A stretch of 64,000 nt of DNA from Clostridiales bacterium (GTDB lineage: Bacteria; Bacillota; Clostridia; Saccharofermentanales; Saccharofermentanaceae), in contig JAFWDK010000023.1 of the NCBI GenBank assembly GCA_017513085.1, positions 1 to 64,000 on the forward strand. The letters run 5' to 3'. A program made the translations under genes and the position numbers. Shown here piece after piece: positions 232-22,804 of the stretch (positions are counted from its first letter, which is position 1; the number at the start of each line of letters is the position of its first letter). The notes beneath the pieces were generated by a model. The model worked only from the letters and a program-made list of their open reading frames with translations. It was not told where the DNA came from and made no database searches.

Positions 232-2985
232 TCATACTCCGTTCTTTTTGTCTTCTTTATCCTTTTCGCGAAGGAGAAGTCCGAACGTTCCGGGGCCGCA
301 GTTTACGGAGATTGCCGGAGATGCCTGGCGGAAGTAAACTTCATCGAATCTTATCTTCTTATCGATCTGCTCACGGATCCAATCCAGATCGCGGTTGCTG
401 AGACCTACATATGTTACGAACAGGATGCGCGTATCGATAGGTTTCTCACTGGAAAGGCATGTGTTGATGTAATTCTTCCAGGCTCTCTTTCGGGAACCGA
501 AGTACAGCATACCCAGTCCCATCTTGCCTTTCTTAAGAACCAGGACAGGTCTTCCCATAAGGGAATTGACAAGATTGGCGACTCCTTTTCCAACCTGTCT
601 GGCGCGGGCAAGGAAATCGAGATTATCCACGATGAAGCTGGTATGTACTCTCTTCTTCAATCTTTCCAGACGGGCCAGAATCTCTTCCGGACTCTTGCCC
701 GCATCTGCCATCCGGCATGCCTCGATCGCCAGGATACCCTGCCCGCTCGAGAGGTGACCCGAATCAAAAACGAACACACTGTCGAAGGATTTAGCAGCTT
801 CGAGAGCGATCGGATAACCACTGTTCTCCACCTTGGAGGAAATGGCAATGTGAATGATATTATTCGCAGAAGAAAGCTGCTTGGCAAAGAAATCTTCCAT
901 CTCCTTCACCGACGGCGCCGTCGGCATGACCACGTGGTCACGGTCCTCCATATATTTCAGTATGCCGCGCGTGTCGATCTCTTTTCCGTCTTTAAAAACA
1001 CCCTCGGCCGTGCAGACTTTATGCGGGACCACTTCAATACCATACTTCTTCACGATTTCAGGAGGAAGATCCGCAACACTCTCCGTCGTGATGATGACTC
1101 TCTTTCTCTTCCGGTCACCACGCATCCAGGAAATCGACTCCTCCGCAATTTCAGTACGGTTACCGGTAATGTAGACAAGTTCTTTTGGAAGGAGACGGTA
1201 AAGCTCGTTCTCCAGATCGCTACCGCTTACCGGCTTGACAAGATAGCCGTCAAAATTCTCTTTTATATAGAGCTGTCGGTTTTCTTCGTCCGCGTTGGCG
1301 GTCAGCACGACTATGCTGGTCTCACGGCAACGGCCACCGGTCTGATCTACTATCCGTCGACGGCACTCGATACCGTCCATCTCCGGCATAAGGTGATCCA
1401 TAAAGATCACATCGTACTTAATGTTTAAGGTCTTTCGCAGCGCATCGGCTCCGCTCATGGCTGTATCGATCCGGATCTTCGTATCACGAAGAAGTTTTGT
1501 TACGACCATGAGATTGGCTTCGTTATCGTCCACCACCAGGATCCTGGCTTGCGGGGCTTCGAATTTCGGCACATAGTCTTCCTTCTGCCCGAAGGATTTA
1601 CTCTTATCGAAATTGTACTGCCCCATTTTGTTTTTGTTTTCACAGATCTGCGGGATCTCCACGATAAAAGTGGAACCTTTCGTATAGACACTGTTCACCG
1701 TGACTTTACCGCCCATCAGATCGACCAGTTGTTTTACGATGGAAAGGCCTAAACCGGTACCCTCGATGTGCTTGTTGGAATCCTCGTCCACACGCTTAAA
1801 CGCCGAGAAAAGATACGGGATGTCATCCGGCTTGATTCCGACGCCGGTGTCGGTCACGGAATAGAACATATTGCACGTGGCGTCATCGAGCATCTCACAC
1901 TGCACGGACAACGACACGGAACCTTCCTTGGTATACTTGATGGCATTGTTGATGATGTTGATCAGGATCTGCTTGATACGGACATCATCGCCGATCAGTT
2001 CATTGGGGATATCAGGCGAAACATCGACATGGAACTCCAGCTTCTTCTCTTTTGCACGGATCCACATCATGCCGACAAGATCCGAGAGCATTTCACCGGT
2101 CTGATACGGTGCCGACAGAAGCTGCATGCGTCCGGACTGGATCTTCGACATGTCGAGGATATCGTTGATCAGGTTCAGAAGAAGTTTACCGGCCGATTTG
2201 ATGTTGGCCGCATCTTCCATAACTTCTTCACTTACATCTTCTCTAAGGATCATCTCGTTAAGTCCGATGATCGTGTTGATCGGCGTACGGATCTCATGGC
2301 TCATGTTGGAGAAGAAACTGTTCTGCGCTTTGTTGAGCATCTCGATCTCCTGGTGCTGCCGGTTCGCTGCCACGATCTCCTTTTGCAGGCAATATTTCGT
2401 ATAAAGCATGACAATGCCCATGACGATCTGGAAGATCAGGAACACCAGGAAGTTTGTAAAAGTCGTACGGGTGATCAGTGCTTTTTCAGAATAAGCAATA
2501 TAAACGAGCGTCGTCATGGCCACATCCGAAACCGCCACCAGCGCGATGTATTCGATCGGGTTGAGGTAGATGCAGATCGGCACCATCAAGGAGACGGCAA
2601 GATACAGCGTTGTGTCCATCGAGTTATTGTAGTTGAGGTTAATGTACGCAAGTGTTATGACAAGACCGTACATGACCACTGCCAGAAAAGCACTTAGAAA
2701 GTGAAGCATCTTTATGCGATGCTCGAAGTCCTTCGAGGCGTACCGCATCAGCGCGAACCACAGAAGCGAGGATACGATCAGGATGATGTAACATGCCCGG
2801 TGCAGCGTCAGGCTGTTGCGGAATTCCGAAGGTTCCACGATCGACCAGATAAAATATCCGATCACGGCAAGCATGACGAAAAATACCATCGCATGTGTGG
2901 TCTTGACCGTGCCTTTATAGATCGAGGACACCGCTTCTTTGTCGTGGGAAGACGGTTTGAAAATGTAAGTCAGTAATCCTTTCAT
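232..2985 (-). CDS. Membrane hybrid sensor histidine kinase with receiver domain and C-terminal DegV/FakB-like domain
   Basis: ~6 N-terminal TM helices; H-box SHEIRTP; N/G boxes NIINNAIKYT, DTGVGI, GTGLGL; REC LVVDD...FMDHLMP...KP; C-terminal IITTESVADLP...ISSK...DSGHLSSGQG...CGPGTFG resembles DegV. Confidence 0.9.
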   Translation of the reverse strand: MKGLLTYIFKPSSHDKEAVSSIYKGTVKTTHAMVFFVMLAVIGYFIWSIVEPSEFRNSLTLHRACYIILIVSSLLWFALMRYASKDFEHRIKMLHFLSAFLAVVMYGLVITLAYINLNYNNSMDTTLYLAVSLMVPICIYLNPIEYIALVAVSDVAMTTLVYIAYSEKALITRTTFTNFLVFLIFQIVMGIVMLYTKYCLQKEIVAANRQHQEIEMLNKAQNSFFSNMSHEIRTPINTIIGLNEMILREDVSEEVMEDAANIKSAGKLLLNLINDILDMSKIQSGRMQLLSAPYQTGEMLSDLVGMMWIRAKEKKLEFHVDVSPDIPNELIGDDVRIKQILINIINNAIKYTKEGSVSLSVQCEMLDDATCNMFYSVTDTGVGIKPDDIPYLFSAFKRVDEDSNKHIEGTGLGLSIVKQLVDLMGGKVTVNSVYTKGSTFIVEIPQICENKNKMGQYNFDKSKSFGQKEDYVPKFEAPQARILVVDDNEANLMVVTKLLRDTKIRIDTAMSGADALRKTLNIKYDVIFMDHLMPEMDGIECRRRIVDQTGGRCRETSIVVLTANADEENRQLYIKENFDGYLVKPVSGSDLENELYRLLPKELVYITGNRTEIAEESISWMRGDRKRKRVIITTESVADLPPEIVKKYGIEVVPHKVCTAEGVFKDGKEIDTRGILKYMEDRDHVVMPTAPSVKEMEDFFAKQLSSANNIIHIAISSKVENSGYPIALEAAKSFDSVFVFDSGHLSSGQGILAIEACRMADAGKSPEEILARLERLKKRVHTSFIVDNLDFLARARQVGKGVANLVNSLMGRPVLVLKKGKMGLGMLYFGSRKRAWKNYINTCLSSEKPIDTRILFVTYVGLSNRDLDWIREQIDKKIRFDEVYFRQASPAISVNCGPGTFGLLLREKDKEDKKNGV

Positions 2986-5657
2986 GTTTCATCCCCTCCT
3001 TCCTCAACATCGACCGGTTCGAATTCCAGGATCTCCTCATCCGGCGCTTCAGCTCCGGACGTCTCGTCTCTCTTCTCACCTGTCCTGGGCGCATCGGAGG
3101 AGTCTGTCTCTTCCAAGCCTTCGGAAGCCTGCTTTTCCTCTTTCGCCAGGCGGATATCCTCCTCAAGGAATTCGCTTATGCCTTTTACCACCGTCGCATA
3201 TTCGCTCATGGCACTATAGTGATTGCCGGCGATGTACTCCTCACGCTTCTCCTTCGCCGCCAGCTCCAGTGCTTTTGCATCCTCCGAAAGCACTGACGCG
3301 CCGATCATTTTGGCAGTGCTCTTCAGTGCGTGGACCAGTATTTCGTAATTGTGCCAGTCACCGGATTCATAGTAATGGCCGATCAAGGGCGTCTTCTCAT
3401 CCGCTTCGATCGCGAACTGGACCAGAAGATCTTTATAGAACTGGAAATCATCCATGCAGTATTTCATACCGGCTTTCGTGTCAACGCCATAGCCTTTCAA
3501 ATGTTCTTTCAGCGTAATCGCGTTCACGACTTTGCTTTCCGGCTGACTCCGCATTGCCTCGAAGTCTATGGGCTTGATATCTTCCACATGGATCTCTTCC
3601 ATCGACACCATATTCTTCGGAAGGACCTGCCGCATGACACGCTCGAGTTCCTCGATCTCGATCGGTTTGCTGACGAATCCGTCAAAGCCTTCCGCCAGGA
3701 ACATCTGCTTGGCGGAACTCATTGCATTGGCCGTAAGCGCGACGATCGGGATCTCGCCGTTTTTACCGGATACATCCGAGCGGATCCGCTTCATGGCTTC
3801 GACGCCATCCATGCCACTCATCATGTGATCCATGAAAATGATATCGAAGCTCTTCTCCCGGCATATGTCGATCGCTTCCTGTCCCGAAAGCACGGTCGAC
3901 ACTTCCATGCCGTAATTACGGAAGATGCTTTTTCCGACTACGAGGTTCATCGGCTCATCGTCTACGATCAGCGTCTTCACGCCACGGCAGTACATCTTCC
4001 TGCCGACACTTTGCGCATCGTGGAGATTGGTATTCAATACGGAAACGACCGGGAAGCAATAGAACGGTTTTTCCATGACTCTGGCGCCTGATCCTTGCGG
4101 CAGGACGAAATCGTCATTGGCCACTACGACTACCAGTATTTCCTTCGCCAGGCTTTCGATCAGTTCCATATTCGATCCGTATTCTTCTTCCGCCACAAAC
4201 AGATGCGTCATATGGACGGATTCGTGCAGAAGCTTGAGATCTTCCGGATTATTGACACGATGCATCTGGATCCCTAGTCCTTTAACAATGTTCAAAACCA
4301 TGGAATTGTAGTAATCGCGGACCGCCGGATCCGAGAACTTTTCAAAATGCAGATATGCGCCGAGGATGAGCTGATCCGGATGTGCCACCGACATGCAGCT
4401 GGTCGGATCGACGACTTTCTGGGGAATACTGACGTTGACCGTAGTGCCGGAGTCCTTCTTACTCGTGATCGTCATGAAGCCGCCAAGAAGTGCGACAAAA
4501 CCGGAAACGATCGCCAGACCCAGACCCAGACCTCCGCCCATGCGGGAACGGCCGGAGTCAGCCTGGTAGAAACTGTCGTAAACTTTTTCGAGTTCATAAT
4601 CGGACATTCCGATACCGGTATCCGTCACCTCAATGCAGAGATTGATACCGTATTTCTGCGTTTCACTGGAGATCCTGACATACACACCGCCCTTACGCGT
4701 GTATTTTAAGCCGTTCGAGATCAGTGCGCGAAGGATCTTCTTGAGTTTGGATACATCGGAATGCATCACGGCCGGAAGCGCCGGATCCACGTCGATGATC
4801 AGCTCCACATCTTTCGACTTCTCACGACGAAGCTCCGTCACCAGATCGTGAAGGACCGACGAAAGCATATAGTCTTCATTGTTCGCCACGGATTTTTTCC
4901 GGTCGAGCTCGGAATAATCGAGAATATCGCTGATCTGCTCCGCGACTTTCCGTCCGGCATCGCGAACCGCGACCAGATCTCCCAGGATCTCTCTATTCTG
5001 CGATTTATCGATGCAGATACCGGTAAGACCTATTACCGCGTTGACCGGAGTACGGATCTCATGGGAAACATTAGCCAGGAAATCGTTCAATCTCTCCGTG
5101 TCATCCCGAAGTTCCACGATCTCATCCTGCGTACTCAGAAGCACTTGCGTCCACTTGTCGATGACGATCTTGGCAAACCATCCGATCAGGAAGATCAGGA
5201 TCAGATGCAGAATGAACCTTGAAATGATCAGCGCATCGAACTTCTCGTTGCCGACGATCCTGACGCCCACCTGATAAGCCATCGTAATGTAATAGGTGAT
5301 CTGCGCAAGCGTGATCAGTGCTTTGATACCCGTCATAGTCAAAAGAATGATCACCATTGCCATCACCAGTGCCAGGTCAAAAGCACTGGTAGGGTGAATG
5401 CCGTAAAAAAACGCCGTGCACATGATCAGGATCGCATAGATCCGGATGCGTACGGCGGGTGCGGTATCCTGACGAAAATGCAGGAGCCAGCAGACGATCA
5501 CGGCCACACCGACAAGAAGAAGCACCCATTTTTCCCATCCCATCAGGAATGTTTCAGCGACCAGCGCCGCTGCGAAAACGGTATACGTCACCAGGAGCAT
5601 CAGGTGTGAAGAATGGAAAAGTTCCTGTTGGTCTTTCATGTCATTGGAATTACTCAT
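2982..5657 (-). CDS. Membrane hybrid histidine kinase with probable pseudo-receiver, REC and Hpt domains
   Basis: TM N-terminus; SHEIRTP; NGLKYT, DTGIG, GLGLGL; REC IVDD...FMDHMM...KP; Hpt HALKSTA; 4-nt overlap with the next gene. Confidence 0.9.
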   Translation of the reverse strand: MSNSNDMKDQQELFHSSHLMLLVTYTVFAAALVAETFLMGWEKWVLLLVGVAVIVCWLLHFRQDTAPAVRIRIYAILIMCTAFFYGIHPTSAFDLALVMAMVIILLTMTGIKALITLAQITYYITMAYQVGVRIVGNEKFDALIISRFILHLILIFLIGWFAKIVIDKWTQVLLSTQDEIVELRDDTERLNDFLANVSHEIRTPVNAVIGLTGICIDKSQNREILGDLVAVRDAGRKVAEQISDILDYSELDRKKSVANNEDYMLSSVLHDLVTELRREKSKDVELIIDVDPALPAVMHSDVSKLKKILRALISNGLKYTRKGGVYVRISSETQKYGINLCIEVTDTGIGMSDYELEKVYDSFYQADSGRSRMGGGLGLGLAIVSGFVALLGGFMTITSKKDSGTTVNVSIPQKVVDPTSCMSVAHPDQLILGAYLHFEKFSDPAVRDYYNSMVLNIVKGLGIQMHRVNNPEDLKLLHESVHMTHLFVAEEEYGSNMELIESLAKEILVVVVANDDFVLPQGSGARVMEKPFYCFPVVSVLNTNLHDAQSVGRKMYCRGVKTLIVDDEPMNLVVGKSIFRNYGMEVSTVLSGQEAIDICREKSFDIIFMDHMMSGMDGVEAMKRIRSDVSGKNGEIPIVALTANAMSSAKQMFLAEGFDGFVSKPIEIEELERVMRQVLPKNMVSMEEIHVEDIKPIDFEAMRSQPESKVVNAITLKEHLKGYGVDTKAGMKYCMDDFQFYKDLLVQFAIEADEKTPLIGHYYESGDWHNYEILVHALKSTAKMIGASVLSEDAKALELAAKEKREEYIAGNHYSAMSEYATVVKGISEFLEEDIRLAKEEKQASEGLEETDSSDAPRTGEKRDETSGAEAPDEEILEFEPVDVEEGGDET

Positions 5658-14375: not shown

Positions 14376-16775
14376 TCAGCGGATGGTACCGACCTGGATC
14401 AGATGCTTACTCACGAATCTTCGAATACGGGAATTTTTGGCATTCTCAGTAGTCAACATCTTCTGCCCTAAATCAATCAAAGACTGTAGTTCTTCATTCG
14501 TTACTCCATCAGCGCTAAACGCAGCCTTCTGGGCAATAGAAACGAGCTTTCGGGAAGGGCGCTTCTTATACGGGATCAACGCAAGGCGTATATATCGATA
14601 GTATGCGCGGGCACGATTATTGACATTCCCTGAAGAAAACTTGTTTTTCCACCAGAGACAGTATCCTAACCTTATTATGAGCAGTACAACAACGATGGCC
14701 AAAATGACTAAGATCAGTTTTGCCCAGAATGGTATCTTTGTTCTGACTACAATCGATTGGCGCTCCTCTTCCATTTGCCTTACTGATTCGTGAAGTGACG
14801 CAAAACTCTGAGAGGATTCCGTGGTGACATCTTCACTTTCAAGTGTCGGTCTGGGTGTAATCAGCTCTTGTATCTTCTCGCTGGCGCGTGAGTGCGGGGG
14901 ATGATTCTGATCGAGATCGACTGCCAACTGGCTGTCAGTCTTAACCGTATTGAGTCCGAATCCCTCCATAGCATTCTGGTTTCCCGGGGTCGGATCGCAG
15001 AGCACCCATCCATAATCTTCCGTAAAGAACTCAAACCAGGCATGCGCATCTGTCGTGAACACAGGGCAAGAGTCCCAGTTTCTCACATTATTGAGCATAT
15101 ATCCGTTCACATACCGTGTCGGAACCCCGATCATGCGAAGAAGAATCGCTGCGGTAGTCGCATAATGCACGCAGAAACCTGTATCCGCGTCCTCGATAAA
15201 CCATTCGATAAAATCTTTGTCATCCGGCGGATATGGCGTGGAAGCATCATATGGATGGAGTTGTGATACCATCGCGATCACTCGCTCCACCTTCTCCTCA
15301 TCCGACAAATACCCCGGATCACTCATGCATTGTTTAAACCACACAGGAAGCACGTCACTGGTCTCGATCGCAGTCCAAGTGTCCGATGGAACATTCAGAT
15401 AACGTGAATACACCAGATCCAGGTATTCATCTGACCATGCACCGGCGACTTTAACCGGCACATTGTTGTATGCATATACGTATTTTGTACTGCCATTCAG
15501 TTCAGGTGAAAGCTCTTGAAGCATATCGGTGGTCCGTTCATGAATCTCACCGGCTCCTGTTTCTGAAGAGTGACGGTAATTGTCCGCATAGTACGGGACG
15601 GCTCGTCGGACTGCCTTGGCCTCCATCGTTACCTCAAGGATATATTTTCCTTCCAAAGGATCCGGCAAAACACCATTCAGATAGAACTCTTGCGGACTCA
15701 TGTCGATTTCGTCGGCCGTCCACACATTATCGCTGTATTTTCCCATAGAGGCAGTTTTCAGATAAATATACCGACTGGGCTCGACATCCATCGCGTATGT
15801 GGAATTCGGATAACGCTCGACCGTCATGATTTTAACTTCCGGTGGTTCGAAATCTCCAACCATACTCAGATCTTCCTTGCTTCCATCGTTCATGACGACA
15901 ACTTGTTTCGCAATGTCTGATATTACAGAACTTCCACTCCATTGCTTACCCTTCTCTTTCTGTTTAAAAAAATCCAGAACTGATTTTGGCATTTTATTGC
16001 TCAGTTTGGATACATCGGTTGCAATAGATTTAAAAAATGCTTTCTCCTTTTCCGCCCATTCGTTTTTGTTATATCCTTTCTGAGGGAAGATAATACCAAG
16101 TACCAGAAGAAGCGCCACGACCGGGAATGCCAGTCTAAGGACGATCTGGTCTTTTCTTTCCCCTTTTTCTTTTCGCAGGCACCGCAAACAAACCAACAAA
16201 ATGATAGATGCGATGACCATCTCACAGGAAAGCATGCTAGGGAATAAATAATCGAGGGCTATGGTACAAAGAATGTAGGGCAGACAGCTTGTCAAAGCAA
16301 ACCAGCACGAGCGGCGCCGCAGTACCACAAAAGAAGTCAGAGATGCCGGCCAGGTGGCAAGGAGCAGAAAGAATAGCGTAATCGAGTGATCGGAAGCCGA
16401 CACCTGCATTTTGGCAGCCGGAAGAGGGAGATCCCTGAACGTATACACCTTCAGCATTCTCAGAGTATTCCACATGGCGTCTTTCGCGCCGCCTAAATTC
16501 ATTAATAGAATGCCTACGCAGATCAAGGCATTGACGCCAAACATCACCAGAGGATATATCTTACTTTTTCTGCTGTTCACATATACTGCACCCGCCACAT
16601 ATAGTGGAAGGATCGTCAGAAGCATGACGAAACGAAGAGGCAGATCGTAGGTGCTTTGAACCAGCAGAGTCAGCCCGAGCGACAACGCCAAGGAAAGGGA
16701 AAATGCAAGTACGATCGTGCTTATTCCGATTTGAAGATCGCTTCTATTTAAGTTTTCGGACTTATTTTTTTTCAT
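14376..16775 (-). CDS. Membrane transglutaminase-like protein (TgpA-like architecture), copy 1
   Basis: Multi-TM N-terminus; GFCVHYAT (Cys), HAWFE (His), DPTP (Asp); C-terminal TM and tail. Confidence 0.88.
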   Translation of the reverse strand: MKKNKSENLNRSDLQIGISTIVLAFSLSLALSLGLTLLVQSTYDLPLRFVMLLTILPLYVAGAVYVNSRKSKIYPLVMFGVNALICVGILLMNLGGAKDAMWNTLRMLKVYTFRDLPLPAAKMQVSASDHSITLFFLLLATWPASLTSFVVLRRRSCWFALTSCLPYILCTIALDYLFPSMLSCEMVIASIILLVCLRCLRKEKGERKDQIVLRLAFPVVALLLVLGIIFPQKGYNKNEWAEKEKAFFKSIATDVSKLSNKMPKSVLDFFKQKEKGKQWSGSSVISDIAKQVVVMNDGSKEDLSMVGDFEPPEVKIMTVERYPNSTYAMDVEPSRYIYLKTASMGKYSDNVWTADEIDMSPQEFYLNGVLPDPLEGKYILEVTMEAKAVRRAVPYYADNYRHSSETGAGEIHERTTDMLQELSPELNGSTKYVYAYNNVPVKVAGAWSDEYLDLVYSRYLNVPSDTWTAIETSDVLPVWFKQCMSDPGYLSDEEKVERVIAMVSQLHPYDASTPYPPDDKDFIEWFIEDADTGFCVHYATTAAILLRMIGVPTRYVNGYMLNNVRNWDSCPVFTTDAHAWFEFFTEDYGWVLCDPTPGNQNAMEGFGLNTVKTDSQLAVDLDQNHPPHSRASEKIQELITPRPTLESEDVTTESSQSFASLHESVRQMEEERQSIVVRTKIPFWAKLILVILAIVVVLLIIRLGYCLWWKNKFSSGNVNNRARAYYRYIRLALIPYKKRPSRKLVSIAQKAAFSADGVTNEELQSLIDLGQKMLTTENAKNSRIRRFVSKHLIQVGTIR

Positions 16776-17670
16776 CCGCGTCCTCCTTAGGGATCTGCAT
16801 ATGAAGGATCTTCAAGATCGCCGTATCGAGATCTCTTTGAGACTCGATGTTAAAAGCGACCTCCCTCTTCTTTGGCGGCAGGACACGGATCTTGTGATCG
16901 ATGTCATGGCTGAGAAAATAGTTTGACGTGAACAGTAATTCGCCAAGTTTTTGGTCCATCTGATCACGATCGTTTTTTAGTTCGAGATAAACACGGGCAT
17001 GACCGAAACAAGGCTCCTGAGGTTCTTTGACCAGAATATGGTCGCGCTTGGCCGATAGTTTCCAATGAATATTCTTGACCGGATCTCCCACCATGTAATC
17101 ACGAACATCGTAGATCTCAGAATACGGCGCACGTGATTTTTTCAGCATGCGTGCTTTAAAACCGTTCGATTCCGGGATAATCTCCGGAATGATCGGGATC
17201 GGGCGAACCACCACTTCTTCTTTCAGATGGAATTTCTTGGAAACGAAGAAGAGCTTAAACAAGTCATAGACCTTATAATTTGAGGAAGTAAATACATATG
17301 TGCCGCAATGCTCGGTATTGATCGGGAAATGCTTCTCCCCGCCATGAGCAAACTCGATTTTTTTATAGTTCTGCTTGATATCGCTCATGATTTCCTGGCT
17401 AACCAGAGAAAGACGGCAGACAAAGAAACCGAAAACGCTCCGGCTTTCTGCCTTTACTACGATTTCTGCCTCTTTTCCGATCTGGACATTCTTAGGGACC
17501 TTGACTTCTATCCTGGTGTGAAAACTATTGATGATTGCCGAAATCAAAGAAATCGGCGGTATCAAGAGCAGGATCAGCATGCAATACCACGATAGCCACA
17601 TCTGATAAAACAGAAAGAACACTACCGAAGCAACAAGCATCAGAATGTATAAACACCAACTCTTTACCAT
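16762..17670 (-). CDS. DUF58 family protein, copy 1
   Basis: N-terminal TM pair; D.F.LF; VRDY..GDPVKNIHWKLSAK; sits between moxR and the transglutaminase. Confidence 0.88.
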   Translation of the reverse strand: MVKSWCLYILMLVASVVFFLFYQMWLSWYCMLILLLIPPISLISAIINSFHTRIEVKVPKNVQIGKEAEIVVKAESRSVFGFFVCRLSLVSQEIMSDIKQNYKKIEFAHGGEKHFPINTEHCGTYVFTSSNYKVYDLFKLFFVSKKFHLKEEVVVRPIPIIPEIIPESNGFKARMLKKSRAPYSEIYDVRDYMVGDPVKNIHWKLSAKRDHILVKEPQEPCFGHARVYLELKNDRDQMDQKLGELLFTSNYFLSHDIDHKIRVLPPKKREVAFNIESQRDLDTAILKILHMQIPKEDADEKK

Positions 17671-17684
17671 ACATCAGACCGCAA

Positions 17685-18617
17685 TCAGACTTTCGGTACA
17701 GCAGTAGAATGAATAATGGCTTTTGCGATCTCATCGCTGCTCTTCTCATTGACTTCCGCTTCAGGTGTTAAAATGAGACGATGTCCCATGACCGGATTAA
17801 AGACCGCCTGCACGTCGCTGGGAATAACAAAGTTGCGATCACAAAGATAAGCATATGCTTTGGCCATAGATGTCAGCGCCAGCGTTGCACGCGGACTCGC
17901 GCCTCGATCCAGGTCGGCATGTTTTCTTGTATTGGCAACCAGTGCGACGATATAGTCCAGCACGGCATCACTGACAAATGTACAGTCGACGTCGTTCTGC
18001 ATGATTAAGATGTCCTGGAGCGTCATGATCTGCTGGACGTTTTCCATCGGATTTCTGCCCTTCTCACGATTTTTGATCATGAGTTTTTCATCTACGACTG
18101 ACGGATAACCCATGGAAACACGGATAGCAAAACGGTCCATCTGTGAATCCGGCAGAAGCGACGTACCGGAAGCGCCGGACGGGTTCTGCGTCGCAATGAC
18201 CACGAACGGTTTCGGAAGCGCATAGGAATTGCCGTCTACGGTGACCTGTCTTTCTTCCATAGCTTCGAGAAGCGCGGACTGGGTACGTGACGAAGCGCGG
18301 TTCAGTTCATCTGCGAGGAAAAGGTTGTGAAAGATCGAGCCCGGCTGATAACGCATGCTTGAACTCATTTTGTCATACACGGAAAAACCGGTGATATCGG
18401 AAGGCAGTACGTCCGGCGTAAACTGTACTCGACCGTAATCCAGGCCCATGGTCTTTGAAAAAGCCAGTGCCATGGTCGTCTTTCCCACACCCGGAACATC
18501 TTCCATCAAGACATGTCCTCCGGAAAGGATGCCCGCCAGGACCATCACGATCGTATAGTCTTTACCACAGATCACCTTCTTGATCTCTTCCACGATTTGT
18601 TTTGTTTTAACACTCAT
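17685..18617 (-). CDS. moxR: MoxR family AAA+ ATPase, copy 1
   Basis: EDVPGVGKT, RVQFTPDVLPSDITG, ADELNR, ATQNP, GASPRA. Confidence 0.93.
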   Translation of the reverse strand: MSVKTKQIVEEIKKVICGKDYTIVMVLAGILSGGHVLMEDVPGVGKTTMALAFSKTMGLDYGRVQFTPDVLPSDITGFSVYDKMSSSMRYQPGSIFHNLFLADELNRASSRTQSALLEAMEERQVTVDGNSYALPKPFVVIATQNPSGASGTSLLPDSQMDRFAIRVSMGYPSVVDEKLMIKNREKGRNPMENVQQIMTLQDILIMQNDVDCTFVSDAVLDYIVALVANTRKHADLDRGASPRATLALTSMAKAYAYLCDRNFVIPSDVQAVFNPVMGHRLILTPEAEVNEKSSDEIAKAIIHSTAVPKV

Positions 18618-18671: not shown

Positions 18672-20525
18672 TTATCCCCGCATAGAGAAATATGCGCCGC
18701 CGTTTTCCATTTCGACTCCACGGTATTCCGCCAGTTCGCTTACCGTAACCAGCGTATAGCCTCTTGCGATCAGTTCCGGTACGATCACCTCGACTGCATC
18801 TGCCGTTGTGGTATAAAGATCATGCATCAGGACGATTTCCCCGTCTCTCGCATGCGAAAGCACTTCATCGATGACGTGCTGTGCGTTTCTGTATTTCCAG
18901 TCGTTGGTATCTACTGACCAGATGATCATGGGCATACCGACATTATTTCTGACTGTATTGTTAAATGCTCCGCCGACCGGTCTCATGATCTTCGGACGAA
19001 TACCGGTGATATTGAATACTGCGTCGTTGGCCTGTGAGATCTGGCTACGGATGCCGTCTGCGGAAAGCTTGGTAAGCGAAGTGTGATCCCATGTATGGTT
19101 TCCGATCTCGCAATCCAGATTGACTTCACGGATAAGGCAGCTTCTGTATGTCCTGCAGCGGTTTCCGACTACGAAGAACGTGCCGTGCGCCCCATACTTT
19201 TCCAGAACATCGAGGATACGGTTGGTAACCGGTGCATTCGGGCCATCGTCCCACGTCAACGCAATCACTTTCTCCGGTTTGGCAATAATGTTGGCGATCC
19301 CCATCTCTGCGAGGCGTGCCTTGTAATCCGCCGTCTTGGCAATCTCGGTAACGATATGGTATCTGGTAATTCCATTGTTAAGAGAGATCGATCCGGAGTT
19401 GATCTGACTGTCTGTGGCCTCTTTCCCGCAGGTAACACGATAGATCGCGCGGAGAAACGCTTCGTTATCCGAAAGATAGTTCCAGCAATCTTCCTTTGCC
19501 ACGATGGCTTTGATCAGGTCCTCCACTTTGCGGGAGCCATTCAATGCCGATGCCACGAGCTCATCCAGTTCCTCGGCCGTTGCCTGACGATTGGTAAGGA
19601 AGGGATAGCCTTGGGCAAGATATGCAGTCAGAGGGTAGTTCTTGTCTCTCGGACAAGTAAGCTCGACGGCTCCGGGCAGCATGCCGTATTTGGCGCACAG
19701 CGCAGAAAACTCGTCCAGGCAGGCAATCTGGTTGATGACATAACTGATGGAAACACCGTTGTTCAGGATTTCGGACCAGTACGTCTTTCCACTGTCGTCG
19801 ATCTCTCTGTCAAACATGGAAAGATAGACCAGAGCTAACTCCTCGTCCTGAGACAATCCTTTGTTCCGGAACTCTTCACTCTTTACGAAATTGTTGACGA
19901 TCTCCGCTGCGGAGATCTCGCCTTTGGCGATCCGTCCGGTCCAGTAGTTCAATCCGTCCACTTCCGGCTTGCGCTCCAGAAAAATGTTATAGGCACGGGC
20001 CACATAGGCCGTAACGTTCAGATTCAGGTCACGGTTCTCGATAGGTTTGACTTCACCGGGAACAATGTTGTACTTTTTGCAAAGGGTGGTGAATTCTTCG
20101 GAATGTGTAAATCCGTTAATGATGGCACTGATGCTGACTCCGCAATCCAGATAAAACAACCAGTAAGAAATTCCTGCTTCATCCGGATCACGATCAAACA
20201 TCACGTGATAAATGATGTCCATCTGCTGCTCCTGCCGGAGATCTCGAGCACGGAATTCTTCACTGATCATGAATTCGTTGACCAGATCGGCAGCCGTCCT
20301 CTCGCCTTTCACGATGCTCTCTTTCCAGAATAGGAAGCCTTCTTCTTCAGGCTCTCTTTCCAGGATCAGCGTATATGCCCGGGTAACGAAATCCCCAATA
20401 GGATCCTCTCCCTCTTCTTCTGCACGGATCAATGATGGCGTCATGCCCGAAAACAGGAAAGAGAAACAAAGCGTCAGAGAAAGAAGAAGAAACTTGAATC
20501 GTTTCTTTGGCTCGGAGAAATGCAT
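18672..20525 (-). CDS. Secreted polysaccharide deacetylase (CE4/NodB) with N-terminal DUF4214-like repeats, copy 1
   Basis: Signal peptide; three ~125-aa helical repeats; TWDDGP, HTWDH, RPVGG, DTNDW, LMHD. Confidence 0.88.
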   Translation of the reverse strand: MHFSEPKKRFKFLLLSLTLCFSFLFSGMTPSLIRAEEEGEDPIGDFVTRAYTLILEREPEEEGFLFWKESIVKGERTAADLVNEFMISEEFRARDLRQEQQMDIIYHVMFDRDPDEAGISYWLFYLDCGVSISAIINGFTHSEEFTTLCKKYNIVPGEVKPIENRDLNLNVTAYVARAYNIFLERKPEVDGLNYWTGRIAKGEISAAEIVNNFVKSEEFRNKGLSQDEELALVYLSMFDREIDDSGKTYWSEILNNGVSISYVINQIACLDEFSALCAKYGMLPGAVELTCPRDKNYPLTAYLAQGYPFLTNRQATAEELDELVASALNGSRKVEDLIKAIVAKEDCWNYLSDNEAFLRAIYRVTCGKEATDSQINSGSISLNNGITRYHIVTEIAKTADYKARLAEMGIANIIAKPEKVIALTWDDGPNAPVTNRILDVLEKYGAHGTFFVVGNRCRTYRSCLIREVNLDCEIGNHTWDHTSLTKLSADGIRSQISQANDAVFNITGIRPKIMRPVGGAFNNTVRNNVGMPMIIWSVDTNDWKYRNAQHVIDEVLSHARDGEIVLMHDLYTTTADAVEVIVPELIARGYTLVTVSELAEYRGVEMENGGAYFSMRG

Positions 20526-20694
20526 AGATCGATCACCTCAATAACTAATACCCTATTTTTATTATATAATATGCAAGCTTTGAAAAGTGACATATGTGAA
20601 ATATAAAAAGTTCTTTTTAAAATACTCGCAGTGAATTTCTCTTTCAAATCACCGTTTTGCGAAATATTGTTATACTAATCGGGACGAAACTTGT

Positions 20695-20723
20695 TTGTAT
20701 TCACCCTCGAATCATTATATAGT
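20695..20723 (+). promoter_or_regulatory. Putative sigma-A promoter facing a non-coding region
   Basis: TTGTAT-17-TATAGT; a second extended -10 TGtTATACT at 20668-20676. Confidence 0.6.
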
Positions 20724-20729
20724 TAAAGT

Positions 20730-20931
20730 GTATTGAAGAATAACGTGCTTCGGCATATTTTGGTTCAAGGGTTGGTTGAACTATTTGCCCACCGACATGA
20801 TCGTTCCTCTTTCGGTGAACAAACGAGACGGTTTTTGGTTTTTCCGTCACGATAATAAAGCGAAAGGTTTTCTCATTTCCTTCGCTTTTCAAACGGGGAT
20901 TGGTTTTTGTGTTTCCCAATCCCCCTTTTTT
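20730..20931 (+). ncRNA. Candidate structured small RNA (~200 nt, six hairpins, ends in an intrinsic terminator)
   Basis: Promoter upstream; hairpins at 20745-56, 20761-83, 20790-817, 20824-51, 20857-88, 20895-924, then a T-tract; no RBS-led ORF. Confidence 0.55.
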
Positions 20932-20947
20932 ATGCCCTTTTTCCGTG

Positions 20948-22804
20948 TTATCCACGTAATGAAAAATATGCTTCGCCGGCCTGAAGGTCGATGCCCTTAT
21001 ACTCGGCAAGCTCGCTGATGGTCACCAGCGTGAAGCCCTTCTCGATAAGTTTCGGCACCACATATTCCACGGCTTCGGCCGTTGTCTCGTAAAGGTCGTG
21101 CATCAGGACGATATCTCCGTCTCGAGCATTATTCAGGATCTCATCGATCACGTGCTGTGCATTTCTGTATTTCCAGTCATTCGTATCTACCGACCAGATG
21201 ATCATAGGACGGCCGACATTGGCAGCCACCGTGCCGCTGTAGGATCCTCCGACAGGACGCATCACTCTGGTGTGAACTCCTGCCAGATTATAGACCGCAT
21301 TGTCACAGTCGTTCATTTGCTGTTCGACCGCTGCCGCCGAAATACGGGTCAGTGTGGTATGGTTCCACGTGTGATTGGCAATCTCGCAATCCTGGTTGAC
21401 TGCCCGGATCACGGACTCCGAATACGGATTCACACGGTTGCCCACAACAAAGAAAGTGGCATGCGCGTCGTAAGGTTTCAGTGCATCCAGAATACGTGTC
21501 GTAACCGGCGTATACGGACCATCGTCAAATGTCAGCGCAAGAACTTTTTCCGGAACCTTTTTCTCCTCAGCGCCCTCGATCCCCAGCTCCGCCATCTTTT
21601 CCGCGAAAGCAGGTGCTTTTGTAATTTCTTTTAAAATATGGGATCTCGTAATGCCATGGTCCAGACCGATCTTATAGGCTTCGATCTTATCCGCTTCCGG
21701 CTGTTCGCCATAAAGGACTTCATAGACAGCACTGAGGAATTCATCGTTGGAAGCGAGAGCATCCTGGCTCTCGGACGATTCCAATACCGAAGACAGCATC
21801 TCCGTCACCTTCCGATCACCGGAGAGTAACTGACCGATCCCCTCGTTCAGTTCTTCCGGAGAAGCTACGCGCCCCGCCAGTTTCTCGTAAAAACGGGCAA
21901 TAAAACCGGTAAGCTCGTAATGCATGTCGCGAGGTTCAGTCAACTCGATGTTTCCGGGCAGGATACCCTTGCCGGCACATACGTTGGCAAACTCTTCGGT
22001 CTTTGCGATCCGGTCCACAACGAAATCCATGGATACGCCATGGGACAACACATCGATGTATTCGTTTTTTTCATTTTCATCGGGAAGTCTTCCCAGCATG
22101 CTTTCAAAAAGCACTTGAACGGTCATTTCGCGGGTGTAGCCGAGGTTTTTAAATTCATCCGTCTTCATGAAATTCAGGAGGAAATTCGAAAGTCCCGCCT
22201 GATTATTCACAAGCGCCGATGTCCATGTGTTTAATTCCGCCGCTTCAGGCTGTCTGCCGGTAAGCGAACGGCACATCCCGGATATGGCTACCGTCATCTC
22301 AGGATCCAGATCGCGCTCTTCCGTAATGGAAACATCACCGGGCTTGACCGAGTACCCGGCACAGAAGTTTTTGAACTCTCCGGTTCCGGCGATCGCATGC
22401 ACCAGTACCGCTTTGCTGACACCGCCCTGCAAAAGGCGCAACCAATACGCCTTGCCTTCCTGGTCCACGTCGTGACCCAGCATGGCACGGTAAACAACAT
22501 TCAGTTTTTCTTCTGTGGATAGACCTTTGGCCTGAAATTCCGCGCCTTCCGTAAGCGTGTCGATCATGGAGACTGCGGAAGAATTTCCCTTCTTCAGGTT
22601 CGGATACCAAAGACGGATATCCTCGATACCGGCTGTCCGTCCGAGGATCTCGGAAAAAGTCCGGTCAATATATGTCTCCAGAACATCCTCCTTTTGCAAA
22701 GCACGTGAAGGCGTCTGCAACAGAGACACCAATACAGCCAGGCACAAGAAAAATGTCACGACCCGGAACAGGAACCGGCAGGTCCGCCGAGTTGATTTCT
22801 TCAT
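20948..22804 (-). CDS. Secreted polysaccharide deacetylase (CE4/NodB) with N-terminal DUF4214-like repeats, copy 2
   Basis: Signal peptide; same architecture as 18672..20525; TFDDGP, HTWNH, RPVGG, DTNDW, LMHD. Confidence 0.88.
   Translation of the reverse strand: MKKSTRRTCRFLFRVVTFFLCLAVLVSLLQTPSRALQKEDVLETYIDRTFSEILGRTAGIEDIRLWYPNLKKGNSSAVSMIDTLTEGAEFQAKGLSTEEKLNVVYRAMLGHDVDQEGKAYWLRLLQGGVSKAVLVHAIAGTGEFKNFCAGYSVKPGDVSITEERDLDPEMTVAISGMCRSLTGRQPEAAELNTWTSALVNNQAGLSNFLLNFMKTDEFKNLGYTREMTVQVLFESMLGRLPDENEKNEYIDVLSHGVSMDFVVDRIAKTEEFANVCAGKGILPGNIELTEPRDMHYELTGFIARFYEKLAGRVASPEELNEGIGQLLSGDRKVTEMLSSVLESSESQDALASNDEFLSAVYEVLYGEQPEADKIEAYKIGLDHGITRSHILKEITKAPAFAEKMAELGIEGAEEKKVPEKVLALTFDDGPYTPVTTRILDALKPYDAHATFFVVGNRVNPYSESVIRAVNQDCEIANHTWNHTTLTRISAAAVEQQMNDCDNAVYNLAGVHTRVMRPVGGSYSGTVAANVGRPMIIWSVDTNDWKYRNAQHVIDEILNNARDGDIVLMHDLYETTAEAVEYVVPKLIEKGFTLVTISELAEYKGIDLQAGEAYFSLRG

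What the first reader, a model, noticed from the sequence alone, without database searches (positions are those of the whole stretch)
20695..20931. Candidate ~200-nt small RNA: own promoter, six hairpins, repeated GGUU motifs and U-rich loops
Seen: between two minus-strand deacetylase genes, a plus-strand TTGTAT-17-TATAGT is followed by GUGC-UUCG-GCAU; UGGUUCAA/UUGAACUA (loop GGGUUGG); CACCGA/UCGGUG (loop holds anti-SD-like UUCCUCU); GACGG-UUUUUGGUUUUU-CCGUC; AAAGCGAAAGG-UUUUCUCAUUU-CCUUCGCUUU; and GGGGAUUGG-UUUUUGUGUUUC-CCAAUCCCC plus a U-tract. The last three stems all close GG-UUUU...UUU-CC, and GGUU recurs about seven times. The hairpin 2 loop can pair with CCAAUCC of the terminator. There is no RBS-led ORF, and it does not resemble tRNA, SRP, 6S, tmRNA or a riboswitch I know. 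Inference: a multi-site protein sponge (CsrB-like logic with a different motif) or a base-pairing regulator. On the minus strand the same stems show GGAA at the loop edges.
Basis: partly seen in the sequence, partly recalled or inferred. Interest (0 to 1): 0.78.

Follow-up and report, generated by a model that had tools for sequence, protein, structure and literature searches.

The report
Genus-wide small RNA with terminator-loop seed
This is a real small-RNA gene of uncultured rumen Clostridiales, in no RNA-family catalogue, whose invariant last hairpin loop probably pairs with the leaders of drug-export-type ABC transporter mRNAs.

Summary
Window 20695-20931 carries a plus-strand promoter, six hairpins and a U-tract, and matches no Rfam family.

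It is the 204-nt "long form" of a single-copy small RNA seen in 23 of 24 genomes of the genus. The family comes in 68-74, 100-106 and 204-215 nt versions.

All versions share three features:
- a 25-nt upstream element at a fixed 51-nt distance from the -10 box;
- a covarying terminator stem;
- an invariant G/U-rich terminator loop.

The module is inverted between species, which argues for an autonomous gene. RNA-library contigs cover its body.

The terminator loop is complementary to an AAACACA(U/A) box in the leaders of three ABC-exporter genes. The box is kept in 52 of 60 orthologous leaders, against 1 of 24 for a control gene. The base next to the box changes with the loop.

I read it as a base-pairing regulator with GcvB/LhrC-like logic. 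A CsrB-like sponge is unlikely: CsrA was not found, and the repeated hairpins are not conserved. It is a new family of a known kind. No targets have been tested experimentally.

The parts
20661..20685 (+). Conserved 25-nt upstream promoter element GAAATATTGTTATACTAATCGGGAC, at about -70 to -45. Probably an activator site; it also contains an extended -10-like TGTTATACT.
   Evidence: The pattern (<=1 mismatch) is found in 23 of 24 genus genomes, never more than twice per genome, with 0 hits for the reversed control. Only 3 of 276 genomes elsewhere in the order have it. TTGTTATA lies exactly 51 nt from the -10 box in 18 of 18 loci.
20695..20700 (+). -35 box TTGTAT (weak, 3 of 6 matches to TTGACA).
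   Evidence: TTG is kept in the four long forms and in most other loci. The promoter scan did not call it.
20718..20723 (+). -10 box TATAGT.
   Evidence: TATA[G/T]T sits at the same position in 18 of 18 family loci.
20730..20933 (+). Predicted small RNA, about 204 nt. The start is inferred as 7 nt after the -10 box; the end is the U-tract.
   Evidence: RNA-library contigs cover 20744-20897 and 20754-20899 at 100% identity. Neither end has been mapped.
20745..20756 (+). H1, GUGC-UUCG-GCAU. Present in G000 only.
   Evidence: Folds in G000. The 5' arm is not kept in G013, G020 or G009.
20752..20789 (+). GGCA...UGCC closing helix enclosing H2 (20761-20783, apical GGUUGG).
   Evidence: The domain folds in all 4 long forms, although the inner register differs. 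GGCA, GGTTGG and TGCC are invariant in alignment A1.
20790..20817 (+). H3, CACCGA-loop-UCGGUG. The 16-nt loop CAUGAUCGUUCCUCUU is antisense to a Shine-Dalgarno + spacer + AUG.
   Evidence: UCGUUCCUCU and the 5-bp stem are invariant in 4 of 4 long forms. The loop's reverse complement reads AAAGAGGAACGAUCAUG.
20827..20848 (+). H4, GACGG-UUUUUGGUUUUU-CCGUC. Lineage-specific hairpin with a U-rich loop.
   Evidence: Kept in G013, lengthened to a 7-bp stem in G020, and replaced in G009. Its loop ranks 26th of 3467 against the ABC2 leader.
20857..20888 (+). H5, AAAGCGAAAGG-UUUUCUCAUUU-CCUUCGCUUU. Lineage-specific hairpin.
   Evidence: The stem sequence is different in G020 but a hairpin is kept there (read by eye). 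G009 has another hairpin at this place.
20895..20924 (+). Terminator hairpin. Stem 20895-20903 / 20916-20924; the 12-nt loop UUUUUGUGUUUC (20904-20915) is the proposed seed.
   Evidence: Across 18 genomes, 8 of 11 stem pairs change on both sides, 95.8% of cells are paired, and 0 of 500 shuffles reach this. The loop and the three closing pairs are invariant. Complementarity to ABC-gene leaders.
20926..20931 (+). U-tract of the intrinsic terminator.
   Evidence: A T-run follows the hairpin on this strand in all 18 loci.
18672..20525 (-). Divergent neighbour: DUF4214 + polysaccharide deacetylase gene, 617 aa.
   Evidence: A homologue lies next to the small RNA in every genus locus examined.
20948..22804 (-). 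Convergent neighbour: paralogous deacetylase gene, 618 aa.
   Evidence: In the loci examined, this second paralogue beside the RNA is seen only in the long-form genomes.

Best explanation
Window 20730-20933 (+) encodes a stand-alone trans-acting small RNA. It is the enlarged 204-nt version of a single-copy family found throughout one genus of uncultured rumen Clostridiales.

Proposed mechanism:
- Transcription starts from a sigma-A-type promoter with a weak -35 box (TTGTAT-17-TATAGT). This promoter probably depends on a protein bound to the fixed 25-nt element upstream. The same element drives a second small-RNA gene elsewhere in the genome.
- Transcription stops at an intrinsic terminator.
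- The terminator's large G/U-rich loop (UUUUUGUGUUUC, continuing into the CCC of the stem) is the family's universal seed. It pairs with C/A-rich AAACACA(U/A) boxes that lie in or just upstream of the ribosome-binding sites of several ABC-exporter mRNAs. These comprise two ABC-2-type systems and a BceAB-like system. Pairing most likely lowers their translation.
- The long form adds further single-stranded loops. H3 (UCGUUCCUCU plus anti-AUG) is a second, anti-Shine-Dalgarno seed; its best conserved candidate target is a cell-wall amidase mRNA. The U-rich H4 loop may reinforce binding to the same A-rich leaders.
- Hfq, which the genome encodes, may assist.

Shown: the gene anatomy, its conservation, stem covariation, module autonomy, and the complementarity together with its conservation. 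Inferred: the transcript ends, the activator, the pairing in vivo, and the direction of regulation.

Confidence by part: about 0.85 that this is a real plus-strand small-RNA gene; about 0.5 that the terminator loop acts on ABC leaders.
For: 1. Gene anatomy
- The -10 box TATA[G/T]T sits exactly 51 nt from the upstream TTGTTATA in 18 of 18 loci, and a T-run follows the terminator on this strand.
- Terminator stem: 8 of 11 pairs show changes on both sides, 95.8% of cells are paired, and 0 of 500 shuffles reach this. Four U-G or G-U cells would be mismatches on the other strand.

2. Autonomy
- The RNA is a single copy in G000.
- It always lies between HIT and a DUF4214-deacetylase gene. It is co-directional with them in 5 genomes and opposite in 14.

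3. Distribution
- Seen in 23 of 24 genus genomes.
- The loop pattern is found in 21 of 23 genus genomes, against 17 of 118 elsewhere in the family. That outside rate is at the level of the reversed-pattern control, and the 6 outside loci I read contain no hairpin.

4. Shared promoter element
- 39 hits in 24 genomes, never more than 2 per genome, 0 control hits.
- The second copy precedes another conserved terminator-ended RNA of about 105 nt.

5. RNA libraries
- Two bovine-gut metatranscriptome runs of one study each give a 100%-identical contig, covering 20744-20897 and 20754-20899.

6. Seed and targets
- The longest non-self perfect complements of the loop region in G000 are 15 nt and 14 nt. 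Both lie in the leaders of two ABC ATPase genes. Two further ABC ATPase genes are among the next hits.
- Duplex energy ranks among 3467 crude 5' regions: ABC1 2nd, ABC3 10th, ABC2 27th.
- An AAACACA box lies within -80..+6 in 17 of 21 (ABC1), 17 of 17 (ABC2) and 18 of 22 (ABC3) orthologues, against 1 of 24 for the MurB control.
- Each genome's own loop matches its ABC1 leader with shuffle p <= 0.024 in 15 of 20 genomes.
- The base after the box is A in 11 of 15 boxes in the four genomes whose loop has U at that position. It is U in 29 of 42 boxes where the loop has A.
- G020's private loop GUUG faces CAAC in its ABC1 leader. G016's extra U faces an extra A in its ABC2 leader.
- AAACACA is the commonest of its 21 permutations in G000 5' regions (37 genes). 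ABC ATPases are enriched among those genes: 5 of 37 against 47 of 3470, Fisher p = 1.2e-4.

7. H3
- Its loop is an exact antisense of AAAGAGGAACGAUCAUG.
- An Amidase_3 gene keeps 10-11 nt of complementarity at its start site in all 3 other long-form genomes.

8. Hfq is present at 52 bits.
Against: - Neither the start, the end nor the strand of the RNA has been measured. Contigs cannot show them, and DNA can be present in RNA libraries.
- The promoter scan did not call the promoter. The upstream element contains an extended -10-like TGTTATACT, so the transcript could start about 50 nt earlier.
- The minus strand folds with a better z-score.
- The targets rest on my own crude gene calls and on complementarity alone.
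- A-rich leaders favour such matches. The reversed-target control reached 9-11 nt in G000 and G013.
- Ranked by energy, only 2 of the top 25 predicted loop targets carry a Walker A motif.
- The 11-nt MurB site of G000 is kept in none of the 23 orthologues.
- No box, or no better than shuffles, in the ABC1 leaders of G007, G016, G006 and G014; G013 gives p = 0.08.
- In 5 genomes with an A-type loop, ABC1 has A rather than U after the box. G009's ABC2 has U opposite U.
- The four U-type genomes are one clade, so the covariation amounts to about three events. The Fisher p of 0.005 is not corrected for relatedness.
- The C/A box could be kept simply as a translation enhancer.
- H3 has no outstanding target. 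The best of 7571 start sites is -24.6 kcal/mol in a smooth distribution, and 2 of the 3 candidates tested were not conserved.
Confidence: 0.55

Rival explanations
1. The RNA is mainly a protein-binding RNA or sponge. Its several GG-(U-rich)-CC hairpin loops and U-rich tail titrate an RNA-binding protein, either Hfq or an unknown protein that binds U-rich loops, rather than acting through base pairing.
For: - Three G000 hairpins close GG-U-rich 11-12-nt loop-CC.
- GGUU is over-represented: 7 occurrences, reached by 3 of 1000 shuffles.
- Mid-size forms also carry an internal GGAUUG...UUUCC copy resembling the terminator.
- Loop invariance would equally fit a protein site.
- Hfq is encoded.
Against: - No CsrA gene was found, and no loop carries GGA.
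- H4 and H5 are not conserved in G009. The 68-74-nt forms have only one such hairpin, so multi-site binding cannot be the family's core function.
- Loop variants are matched by changes in unlinked mRNA leaders, which a protein site does not predict.
Confidence: 0.12
2. There is no trans-acting function. The hairpins are terminators or stabilisers serving the flanking deacetylase genes: a 3' end for the upstream gene on the minus strand, or bidirectional termination. Any plus-strand transcript would be a by-product.
For: - The region lies directly after the stop codon of the 20948-22804 gene on the minus strand.
- The minus strand folds strongly, z = -5.72.
- The RNA is always next to a deacetylase gene.
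Against: - T-runs follow the terminator only on the plus strand.
- The whole module, including its promoter and upstream element, is inverted relative to the same neighbours in 5 of 19 genomes. This is incompatible with a strand-specific role in their mRNAs.
- The -10 box and its 51-nt spacing are kept in 18 of 18 loci.
- An invariant 12-nt loop is not needed for termination.
Confidence: 0.1
3. The match between the terminator loop and the AAACACA(U/A) boxes does not reflect RNA pairing. Instead, a common DNA- or RNA-binding factor recognises the same short box at all these sites, or the match is coincidence with a general C/A-rich translation enhancer. The small RNA's real seed, such as H3 or the 5' tail, and its real targets lie elsewhere.
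For: - The box is short and lies in A-rich leaders.
- It is generally enriched in 5' regions: 37 genes in G000.
- A change in a factor's specificity would also make all its sites change together.
- C/A-rich elements are known translation enhancers (passage in PMC4474525).
Against: - Matches run beyond the 7-nt core into lineage-specific flanks of the loop and stem: 15 nt in G000 ABC2, 14 nt in G000 ABC1, 13 nt in G016 ABC2, and GUUG/CAAC in G020.
- In the mRNAs the box is always on the sense strand, and in the small RNA it is always antisense.
- The loop sits on a stem that covaries at the RNA level.
Confidence: 0.13

Closest known systems
LhrC1-5 of Listeria monocytogenes (PMC4132741; passages read)
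   Same: - A Firmicute base-pairing small RNA in which the terminator loop itself binds the target's ribosome-binding region.
- Redundant pyrimidine-rich sites spread over several loops.
- Its promoter needs an element upstream of -53 for a response regulator (LisR). The element here lies at about -70 to -45.
- Envelope-related targets and neighbours.
   Different: - No sequence or Rfam match.
- Single copy rather than five copies.
- The seed here is G/U-rich with a terminal UUUCCC, and it pairs with C/A-rich boxes rather than with the Shine-Dalgarno sequence alone.
- The regulator and the inducing signal are unknown here.
GcvB of enterobacteria (PMC4474525, passages read. Sharma et al. 2007 was seen only as a reference-list title. 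That GcvB's seed is G/U-rich is recalled, not read.)
   Same: [quoted passage not shown] Hfq is encoded in the genome.
   Different: - GcvB is proteobacterial, and its seed is an internal single-stranded region, not a terminator loop.
- Its targets are amino-acid and peptide importers. The candidates here are exporter-type systems (ABC-2 and BceAB-like).
- No Rfam GcvB match.
RsaE/RoxS (Rfam RF01820; papers seen only as a search listing and abstracts)
   Same: - Firmicute small RNAs of about 100 nt with C-rich loops that mask Shine-Dalgarno sequences.
- RsaE is the best sub-threshold Rfam match, both for this RNA and for its sibling that shares the promoter element.
   Different: - Scores are 15.3 and 15.1 bits against a 79-bit cut-off, with E-values of 7.2 and 3.9. 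This is not a member.
- The universal seed of this family is G/U-rich, not CCCC.
CsrB/RsmZ-type protein sponges
   Different: - The plus-strand loops carry no GGA motif.
- No CsrA gene was found.
- The repeated hairpins are not conserved.

Membership tests
Any Rfam 15 family | Covariance-model score at or above the family's gathering score | tested here: not met
   0 matches in the 64-kb window. 0 matches in 10 related loci covering mini, mid and long forms and the sibling RNA. At E <= 10 only chance-level hits appear.
RsaE/RoxS (RF01820) | Model match (79 bits) with conserved C-rich (CCCC/UCCC) loops | tested here: not met
   15.3 bits, E = 7.2. Only the UUUCCC at the terminator loop edge and the UUCCUCU in H3 resemble such loops.
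CsrB/RsmZ-type sponge | Multiple GGA-containing loops, and a CsrA/RsmA protein in the genome | tested here: not met
   The plus-strand loops are GGGUUGG, CAUGAUCGUUCCUCUU, UUUUUGGUUUUU, UUUUCUCAUUU and UUUUUGUGUUUC; none contains GGA. A PF02599 search of the 99.4%-complete genome gave 0 matches.
Stand-alone bacterial small-RNA gene | Own promoter and own intrinsic terminator, conserved as a unit independently of the neighbouring genes | tested here: met
   The -10 box is at a fixed spacing in 18 of 18 loci. The terminator stem covaries and is followed by a T-run. The module is inverted between species.
Stand-alone bacterial small-RNA gene | A discrete transcript with defined 5' and 3' ends | tested here: inconclusive
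   RNA-library contigs cover 20744-20899, but contigs give neither ends nor strand.
Base-pairing small RNA with a conserved seed (GcvB/LhrC-like mode of action) | A conserved single-stranded seed with conserved, co-varying complementary sites in target mRNAs | tested here: met
   The loop is invariant in 18 of 18 loci. The box is kept in 52 of 60 ABC leaders against 1 of 24 control leaders. The base next to the box tracks the loop variant: 11 of 15 and 29 of 42. This is computational evidence only.
Base-pairing small RNA with a conserved seed (GcvB/LhrC-like mode of action) | A regulatory effect on the targets in vivo | not testable with these tools
   Needs reporter or knockout experiments.
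Riboswitch or cis-acting leader | A co-oriented downstream gene under the element's control | tested here: not met
   In G000 the next gene is convergent. Orientation relative to the neighbours differs between species.
Small-protein gene | A conserved reading frame with a ribosome-binding site | tested here: not met
   The only plus-strand ORFs start with TTG, encode 40 and 80 aa, and lack a Shine-Dalgarno sequence. Indels between the long forms break the frames.

The most novel reading that the evidence does not exclude
The family is a modular, seed-accreting riboregulator.
- A 68-nt core consists of a purine-rich 5' tail and a terminator whose loop is the seed for C/A-rich boxes of ABC exporters.
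- In some lineages this core grew to more than 200 nt. It did so by duplicating its own terminator hairpin and adding new loops (H3, H4, H5), each a further anti-initiation-region seed.
- The long form would then link Bce-type peptide-antibiotic export, ABC-2 exporters and cell-wall hydrolase expression in one envelope-stress circuit.
- That circuit would be driven by a dedicated activator site shared with a RoxS-like sibling RNA.
Probability: 0.25. Interest if true: 0.65.

Novelty: new member of a known kind. Interest (0 to 1): 0.5.

Why it matters
- Almost nothing is known about riboregulation in the uncultured Clostridiales that dominate rumen communities.
- This case offers a gene, a seed, a promoter element and three named candidate target operons, one of them a BceAB-like peptide-antibiotic transporter with its two-component system. 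All can be tested with simple reporter assays.
- The same RNA occurs at 68, about 104 and about 210 nt in sister species. That makes it a natural series for studying how small RNAs gain seeds and targets.
- It is also another example, after LhrC, of a terminator loop serving as a seed. Target-prediction pipelines usually ignore such loops.

Tried and rejected
- Exact or near-exact target of the H3 loop. A 19-nt complement allowing up to 3 substitutions found only the locus itself and two non-start sites. An energy scan of 7571 start sites gave a smooth distribution with no outlier.
- Flanking deacetylase start sites as targets. The duplexes are weak: H3 gives -13.1 and -9.5 kcal/mol, and the terminator loop gives -6.3 and -9.7 kcal/mol, ranking about 7000th and 3700th.
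- RNAalifold on MAFFT alignments of the long and mid forms. The consensus was poor outside H3 and the terminator because the variable hairpins do not align. I used single-sequence folds instead.
- Hits in contig C26. I first dismissed the terminator-like and element-like hits there as chance. The first turned out to be the reverse complement of the ABC1 start region. The second is the extended -10 box of a divergent gene.
- A loose pattern search for the loop complement across the genus, allowing 2 mismatches, was no better than its control.
- MurB as a target: the site is present only in G000.
- Two H3 candidates, a 223-aa protein and a nitrogenase-like oxidoreductase, are not conserved as targets.
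- Outside the genus, loop-pattern hits are at control level and the six I read are not hairpins. Of 47 hits to the H3 pattern across 185,579 species, only 3 are homologues.
- Known operator or sigma-factor motifs recalled from memory (Rex, ResD, Spo0A, ECF, sigma-H, CcpA) were compared by eye with the upstream element. None fitted convincingly, and none was tested.
- Read cover. Runs X2 and X3 laid no contig on the flanking genes, and run X4 laid contigs on the flanking genes but not on the small RNA. Run X1 is only guessed to be RNA.
- Literature. Three searches turned up no description of this RNA. Sequences cannot be searched in papers, so this is weak evidence of absence. Supplementary files were not consulted.
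Full report
**Observation**

- TTGTAT lies at 20695-20700, followed by a 17-nt spacer and TATAGT at 20718-20723.
- Six hairpins follow: H1 20745-20756, H2 20761-20783, H3 20790-20817, H4 20827-20848, H5 20857-20888, and the terminator at 20895-20924. U6 lies at 20926-20931.
- The minimum-energy fold of 20728-20935 on the plus strand contains all six hairpins (-58.3 kcal/mol, z = -2.28; 3 of 200 shuffles fold as well).
- GGUU occurs seven times. Shuffles give a mean of 2.4, and 3 of 1000 reach seven.
- No Rfam family reaches its gathering score anywhere in the window. At E <= 10 only chance-level hits appear, the best-fitting being RsaE at 15.3 bits against a 79-bit cut-off.
- The flanking minus-strand genes (18672-20525 and 20948-22804) are DUF4214 + polysaccharide-deacetylase proteins, 43% identical to each other.

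Three results count against taking the observation at face value.
- The tool's promoter scan does not list the promoter, because its -35 box is weak.
- Its terminator scan lists nothing, because the loops exceed 8 nt.
- The minus strand folds with a better z-score (-5.72).

**A genus-wide gene, not a local oddity**

The 251-nt region is single-copy in its 3.06-Mb genome.
- Among 40 relatives, BLAST found full-length homologues in two genomes (84% and 70% identity). In nine others it found only the terminator part.
- A scan of one genome from each of 185,579 species for the H3 pattern gave 47 hits. Only three are homologous. Their records are titled 'Clostridiales bacterium' MAGs, two of them from buffalo and yak rumen.
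- I read the loci around the terminator hits. One architecture appears in 23 of the 24 genomes of the genus. The exception is G015, which is 80% complete.

The architecture has four parts:
- a 25-nt element, GAAAnATTGTTATAnTnnnnRGRAC;
- a -10 box TATA[G/T]T exactly 51 nt after TTGTTATA (18 of 18 loci);
- a body of variable length;
- a terminator hairpin with a T-run.

From the inferred start to the U-tract the RNA measures 68-74 nt in 4 genomes, 100-106 nt in 10, and 204-215 nt in 4 (G000, G013, G020, G009). The finding is therefore the long form.

**Terminator**

In 18 genomes the 11-bp stem is 95.8% paired. Eight pairs change on both sides (0 of 500 shuffles reach this; slid controls give 0-2 such pairs). 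The 12-13-nt loop UUU(A/U)UGUGUUUC and the three closing pairs do not vary. G018 later showed a U-A to C-G change in the outermost of those three pairs. Terminator function does not require an invariant loop on a covarying stem, so something else must constrain the loop.

**Strand and autonomy**

The RNA always lies in the same neighbourhood: AlaRS, HIT, the small RNA, then a DUF4214 deacetylase. The whole module, from the upstream element to the T-run, points the same way as these genes in 5 genomes (G001, G011, G004, G005, G019) and the opposite way in 14. This rules out a strand-specific role within the neighbours' mRNAs and defines the unit. In the loci examined, the long-form genomes are the ones with a second deacetylase paralogue, so that the RNA sits between two of them. 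The T-run, the -10 box and four U-G or G-U cells in the terminator stem all favour the plus strand.

**Promoter element and a sibling RNA**

The 25-nt element (<=1 mismatch) occurs 39 times in the 24 genomes. It never occurs more than twice per genome (exactly twice in 16), and the reversed control gives no hit.
- Elsewhere in the order, 3 of 276 genomes have a hit, none in a comparable context.
- The second copy (G000:C11:27136-27160) sits at the same distance from a good TTGAAA-17-TACAAT promoter. It precedes a conserved RNA of about 105 nt with UAUCCUC(U/A)UCCUCAC and CAUCCCCAAUGG motifs and a U7 terminator. This RNA has no Rfam match either.
- The fixed spacing across a variable spacer sequence suggests a protein site at about -70 to -45.
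- The element also contains TGTTATAcT, an extended -10-like sequence. A similar sequence serves as the likely promoter of an unrelated gene. An upstream start therefore cannot be excluded.

**Expression**

Two bovine-gut metatranscriptome runs of one study each yield a single 100%-identical contig on the 1.2-kb stretch I laid. The contigs cover 20744-20897 and 20754-20899. Contigs show that the sequence is present in an RNA library. They do not show strand or ends, and they cannot exclude DNA carry-over.

**What is conserved in the long form**

- H1 is not conserved.
- GGCA...UGCC closes a domain around H2 in all four long forms, but the inner register differs.
- The 5-bp stem of H3 and UCGUUCCUCU in its loop are invariant.
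- H4 and H5 are kept in G013 and remodelled in G020, where the stem sequence changes but the hairpins remain. In G009 they are replaced by two unrelated hairpins.
Mid-size forms carry an internal GGAUUG...UUUCC stretch resembling the terminator. This suggests growth by duplication of the terminator hairpin; I inferred this by eye and did not test it.

**The terminator loop as seed**

I scanned the G000 genome for perfect complements of at least 10 nt to the loop region.
- The two longest non-self hits are 15 nt (AAACACAAAAACCAA, ending 26 nt before the ATG) and 14 nt (GGGAAACACAAAAA, running from the Shine-Dalgarno sequence to the A of the ATG).
- Both lie in leaders of ABC ATPase genes. I call them ABC2 (G000:C8:4486-5238) and ABC1 (G000:C26:64885-65880).
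- Two more ABC ATPase genes (C6 and C14) are among the next hits (Pfam).
- ABC1 and ABC2 are followed by ABC-2-type permease genes. ABC3 (C14:215160-215987) is followed by an FtsX-type permease and faces an OmpR-family response regulator. From general knowledge this is the BceRS-BceAB layout.
- Duplex energies are -24.1, -18.9 and -20.7 kcal/mol. Among 3467 crude 5' regions ABC1 ranks 2nd, ABC3 10th and ABC2 27th.

Conservation of the box across the genus:
- An AAACACA box lies within -80..+6 of the start in 17 of 21 ABC1 orthologues and 18 of 22 ABC3 orthologues.
- It lies there in 17 of 17 ABC2 orthologues of at least 87% identity. Five lower-identity hits were left out of this count.
- In the MurB control, whose G000 leader happens to carry an 11-nt match, it is found in 1 of 24.
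- The leaders are otherwise poorly alignable, and the box sits at different distances from the start.
- Each genome's own loop matches its ABC1 leader better than shuffled leaders do (p <= 0.024) in 15 of 20 genomes. The exceptions are G007, G016, G006, G014 and G013.

Covariation of loop and box:
- The loop differs at one position. It is U in the long-form clade and A elsewhere. The base following the box is A in 11 of 15 boxes in the former genomes. In the latter it is U in 29, A in 12 and C in 1 of 42 boxes.
- G020's private GUUG faces CAAC in its ABC1 leader.
- G016's extra U faces an extra A in its ABC2 leader, giving a 13-nt match.
- The U-type genomes form one clade, so this amounts to roughly three independent compensatory events, not 57.

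Enrichment in G000:
- AAACACA is the most frequent of its 21 permutations in 5' regions (37 genes; the others range from 8 to 30).
- Regex-defined ABC ATPases are enriched among those 37 genes: 5 of 37 against 47 of 3470, Fisher p = 1.2e-4.
- By eye, 9 of 19 genes with the 8-nt versions of the box are ABC components, and several others are lipoproteins.

Results against this reading:
- The energy-ranked top 25 contains only two Walker-A proteins.
- Reversed-target controls reach 9-11 nt in the A-rich G000 and G013 leaders.
- C/A-rich boxes may be kept as translation enhancers in their own right.

**H3**

The H3 loop is the exact antisense of AAAGAGGAACGAUCAUG, that is, a Shine-Dalgarno sequence, a spacer and a start codon. 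Many start sites therefore pair with it, and none stands out. I followed three strong G000 candidates into the other long-form genomes. Only an Amidase_3 gene (N-acetylmuramoyl-L-alanine amidase, G000:C24:89413-90606) keeps 10-11 nt of complementarity in all three. Its whole leader is conserved, so this is only a lead. H3 does not match the ABC leaders, ranking about 2800-3400 of 3467.

**Protein partners**

Hfq is encoded (52 bits). No CsrA gene was found. No plus-strand loop carries GGA.

**Comparison with known systems**

In mode of action the closest cases are LhrC and GcvB.
- LhrC has UCCC sites in loop A, in a single-stranded stretch and in the terminator loop, all able to bind lapB mRNA. 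Its promoter needs a LisR-responsive element upstream of -53 (passages of PMC4132741).
- GcvB binds C/A-rich elements in and upstream of the ribosome-binding sites of ABC-transporter mRNAs (passages of PMC4474525; the title of Sharma 2007 was seen in its reference list; that the seed is G/U-rich is recalled).

The RNA can be assigned to neither family, nor to RsaE/RoxS or CsrB. No covariance model matches, and the copy number, seed location, taxon and target class all differ.

**Verdict**

- It is a new family of a familiar kind: a promoter-to-terminator small RNA that most likely acts by base pairing.
- Its universal seed lies in the terminator loop. The long form described here adds lineage-specific seeds.
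- The sponge reading is not supported.
- I put the existence of the gene at about 0.85. I put the terminator-loop/ABC-leader mechanism at about 0.5.
- Everything about targets is computational and rests on crude gene calls. Transcript ends, the regulator and the direction of regulation are all inferred.

Noticed in passing
G000:C11:27136-27330 (outside the window; locus L100 about 1500-1700, L030 about 337-530): A second small-RNA-like gene shares the same 25-nt upstream element. It has a TTGAAA-17-TACAAT promoter, a body of about 105 nt with UAUCCUCUUCCUCAC and a CAUCCCCAAUGG loop, and a U7 terminator. It is conserved in 13 of the 13 genus loci read. Its best Rfam hit is RsaE at 15.1 bits, far below the cut-off.
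   Followed up: partly
window 18672-20525 and 20948-22804: Two tandem paralogous DUF4214 + polysaccharide-deacetylase genes, 43% identical, bracket the small RNA. In the loci examined, the two-paralogue arrangement goes with the long form of the RNA (G000, G013, G009, and probably G020).
   Followed up: partly
loci L005, L008, L088, L079, L083 compared with L081, L085, L087 and others: The whole small-RNA module is inverted between species while the flanking genes keep their order. A palindromic TTTCGCGAAA lies at the promoter-side edge in several loci. I did not work out how the inversion arose.
   Followed up: no
G000:C14:213660-217484 (L208): A BceAB-like module: an ABC ATPase and an FtsX permease, with a divergent OmpR-type response regulator. 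The ATPase leader carries the GGAAACACAAAACCAAA box. In 10 of the other genus genomes this module lies about 3 kb from the ABC2 orthologue, on the same contig and divergently oriented.
   Followed up: partly
G000:C26:64700-64890 (L029, L134): A divergent promoter region lies between a gene encoding MNRDIMGLIVKREDGSEIVNYDDPQFP... and ABC1. That gene is preceded by GGATTGTTATAATTTTGTGGAA, an extended -10 box that resembles the small-RNA upstream element. The same arrangement occurs in another genus (G161, L125).
   Followed up: partly
upstream of the deacetylase genes: window about 20586-20612, and loci L081, L085 and others: A conserved motif, (A)AATGACATATATGCAATTTTC (AAAGTGACATATGTGAAAT in G000), always lies upstream of the deacetylase gene in the same orientation. 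It is probably that gene's promoter or operator.
   Followed up: no
window 16762-18617: A MoxR-type AAA ATPase gene (17685-18617) and a DUF58 gene (16762-17670) lie downstream of the deacetylase on the minus strand. This is an ordinary MoxR-DUF58 pair.
   Followed up: no
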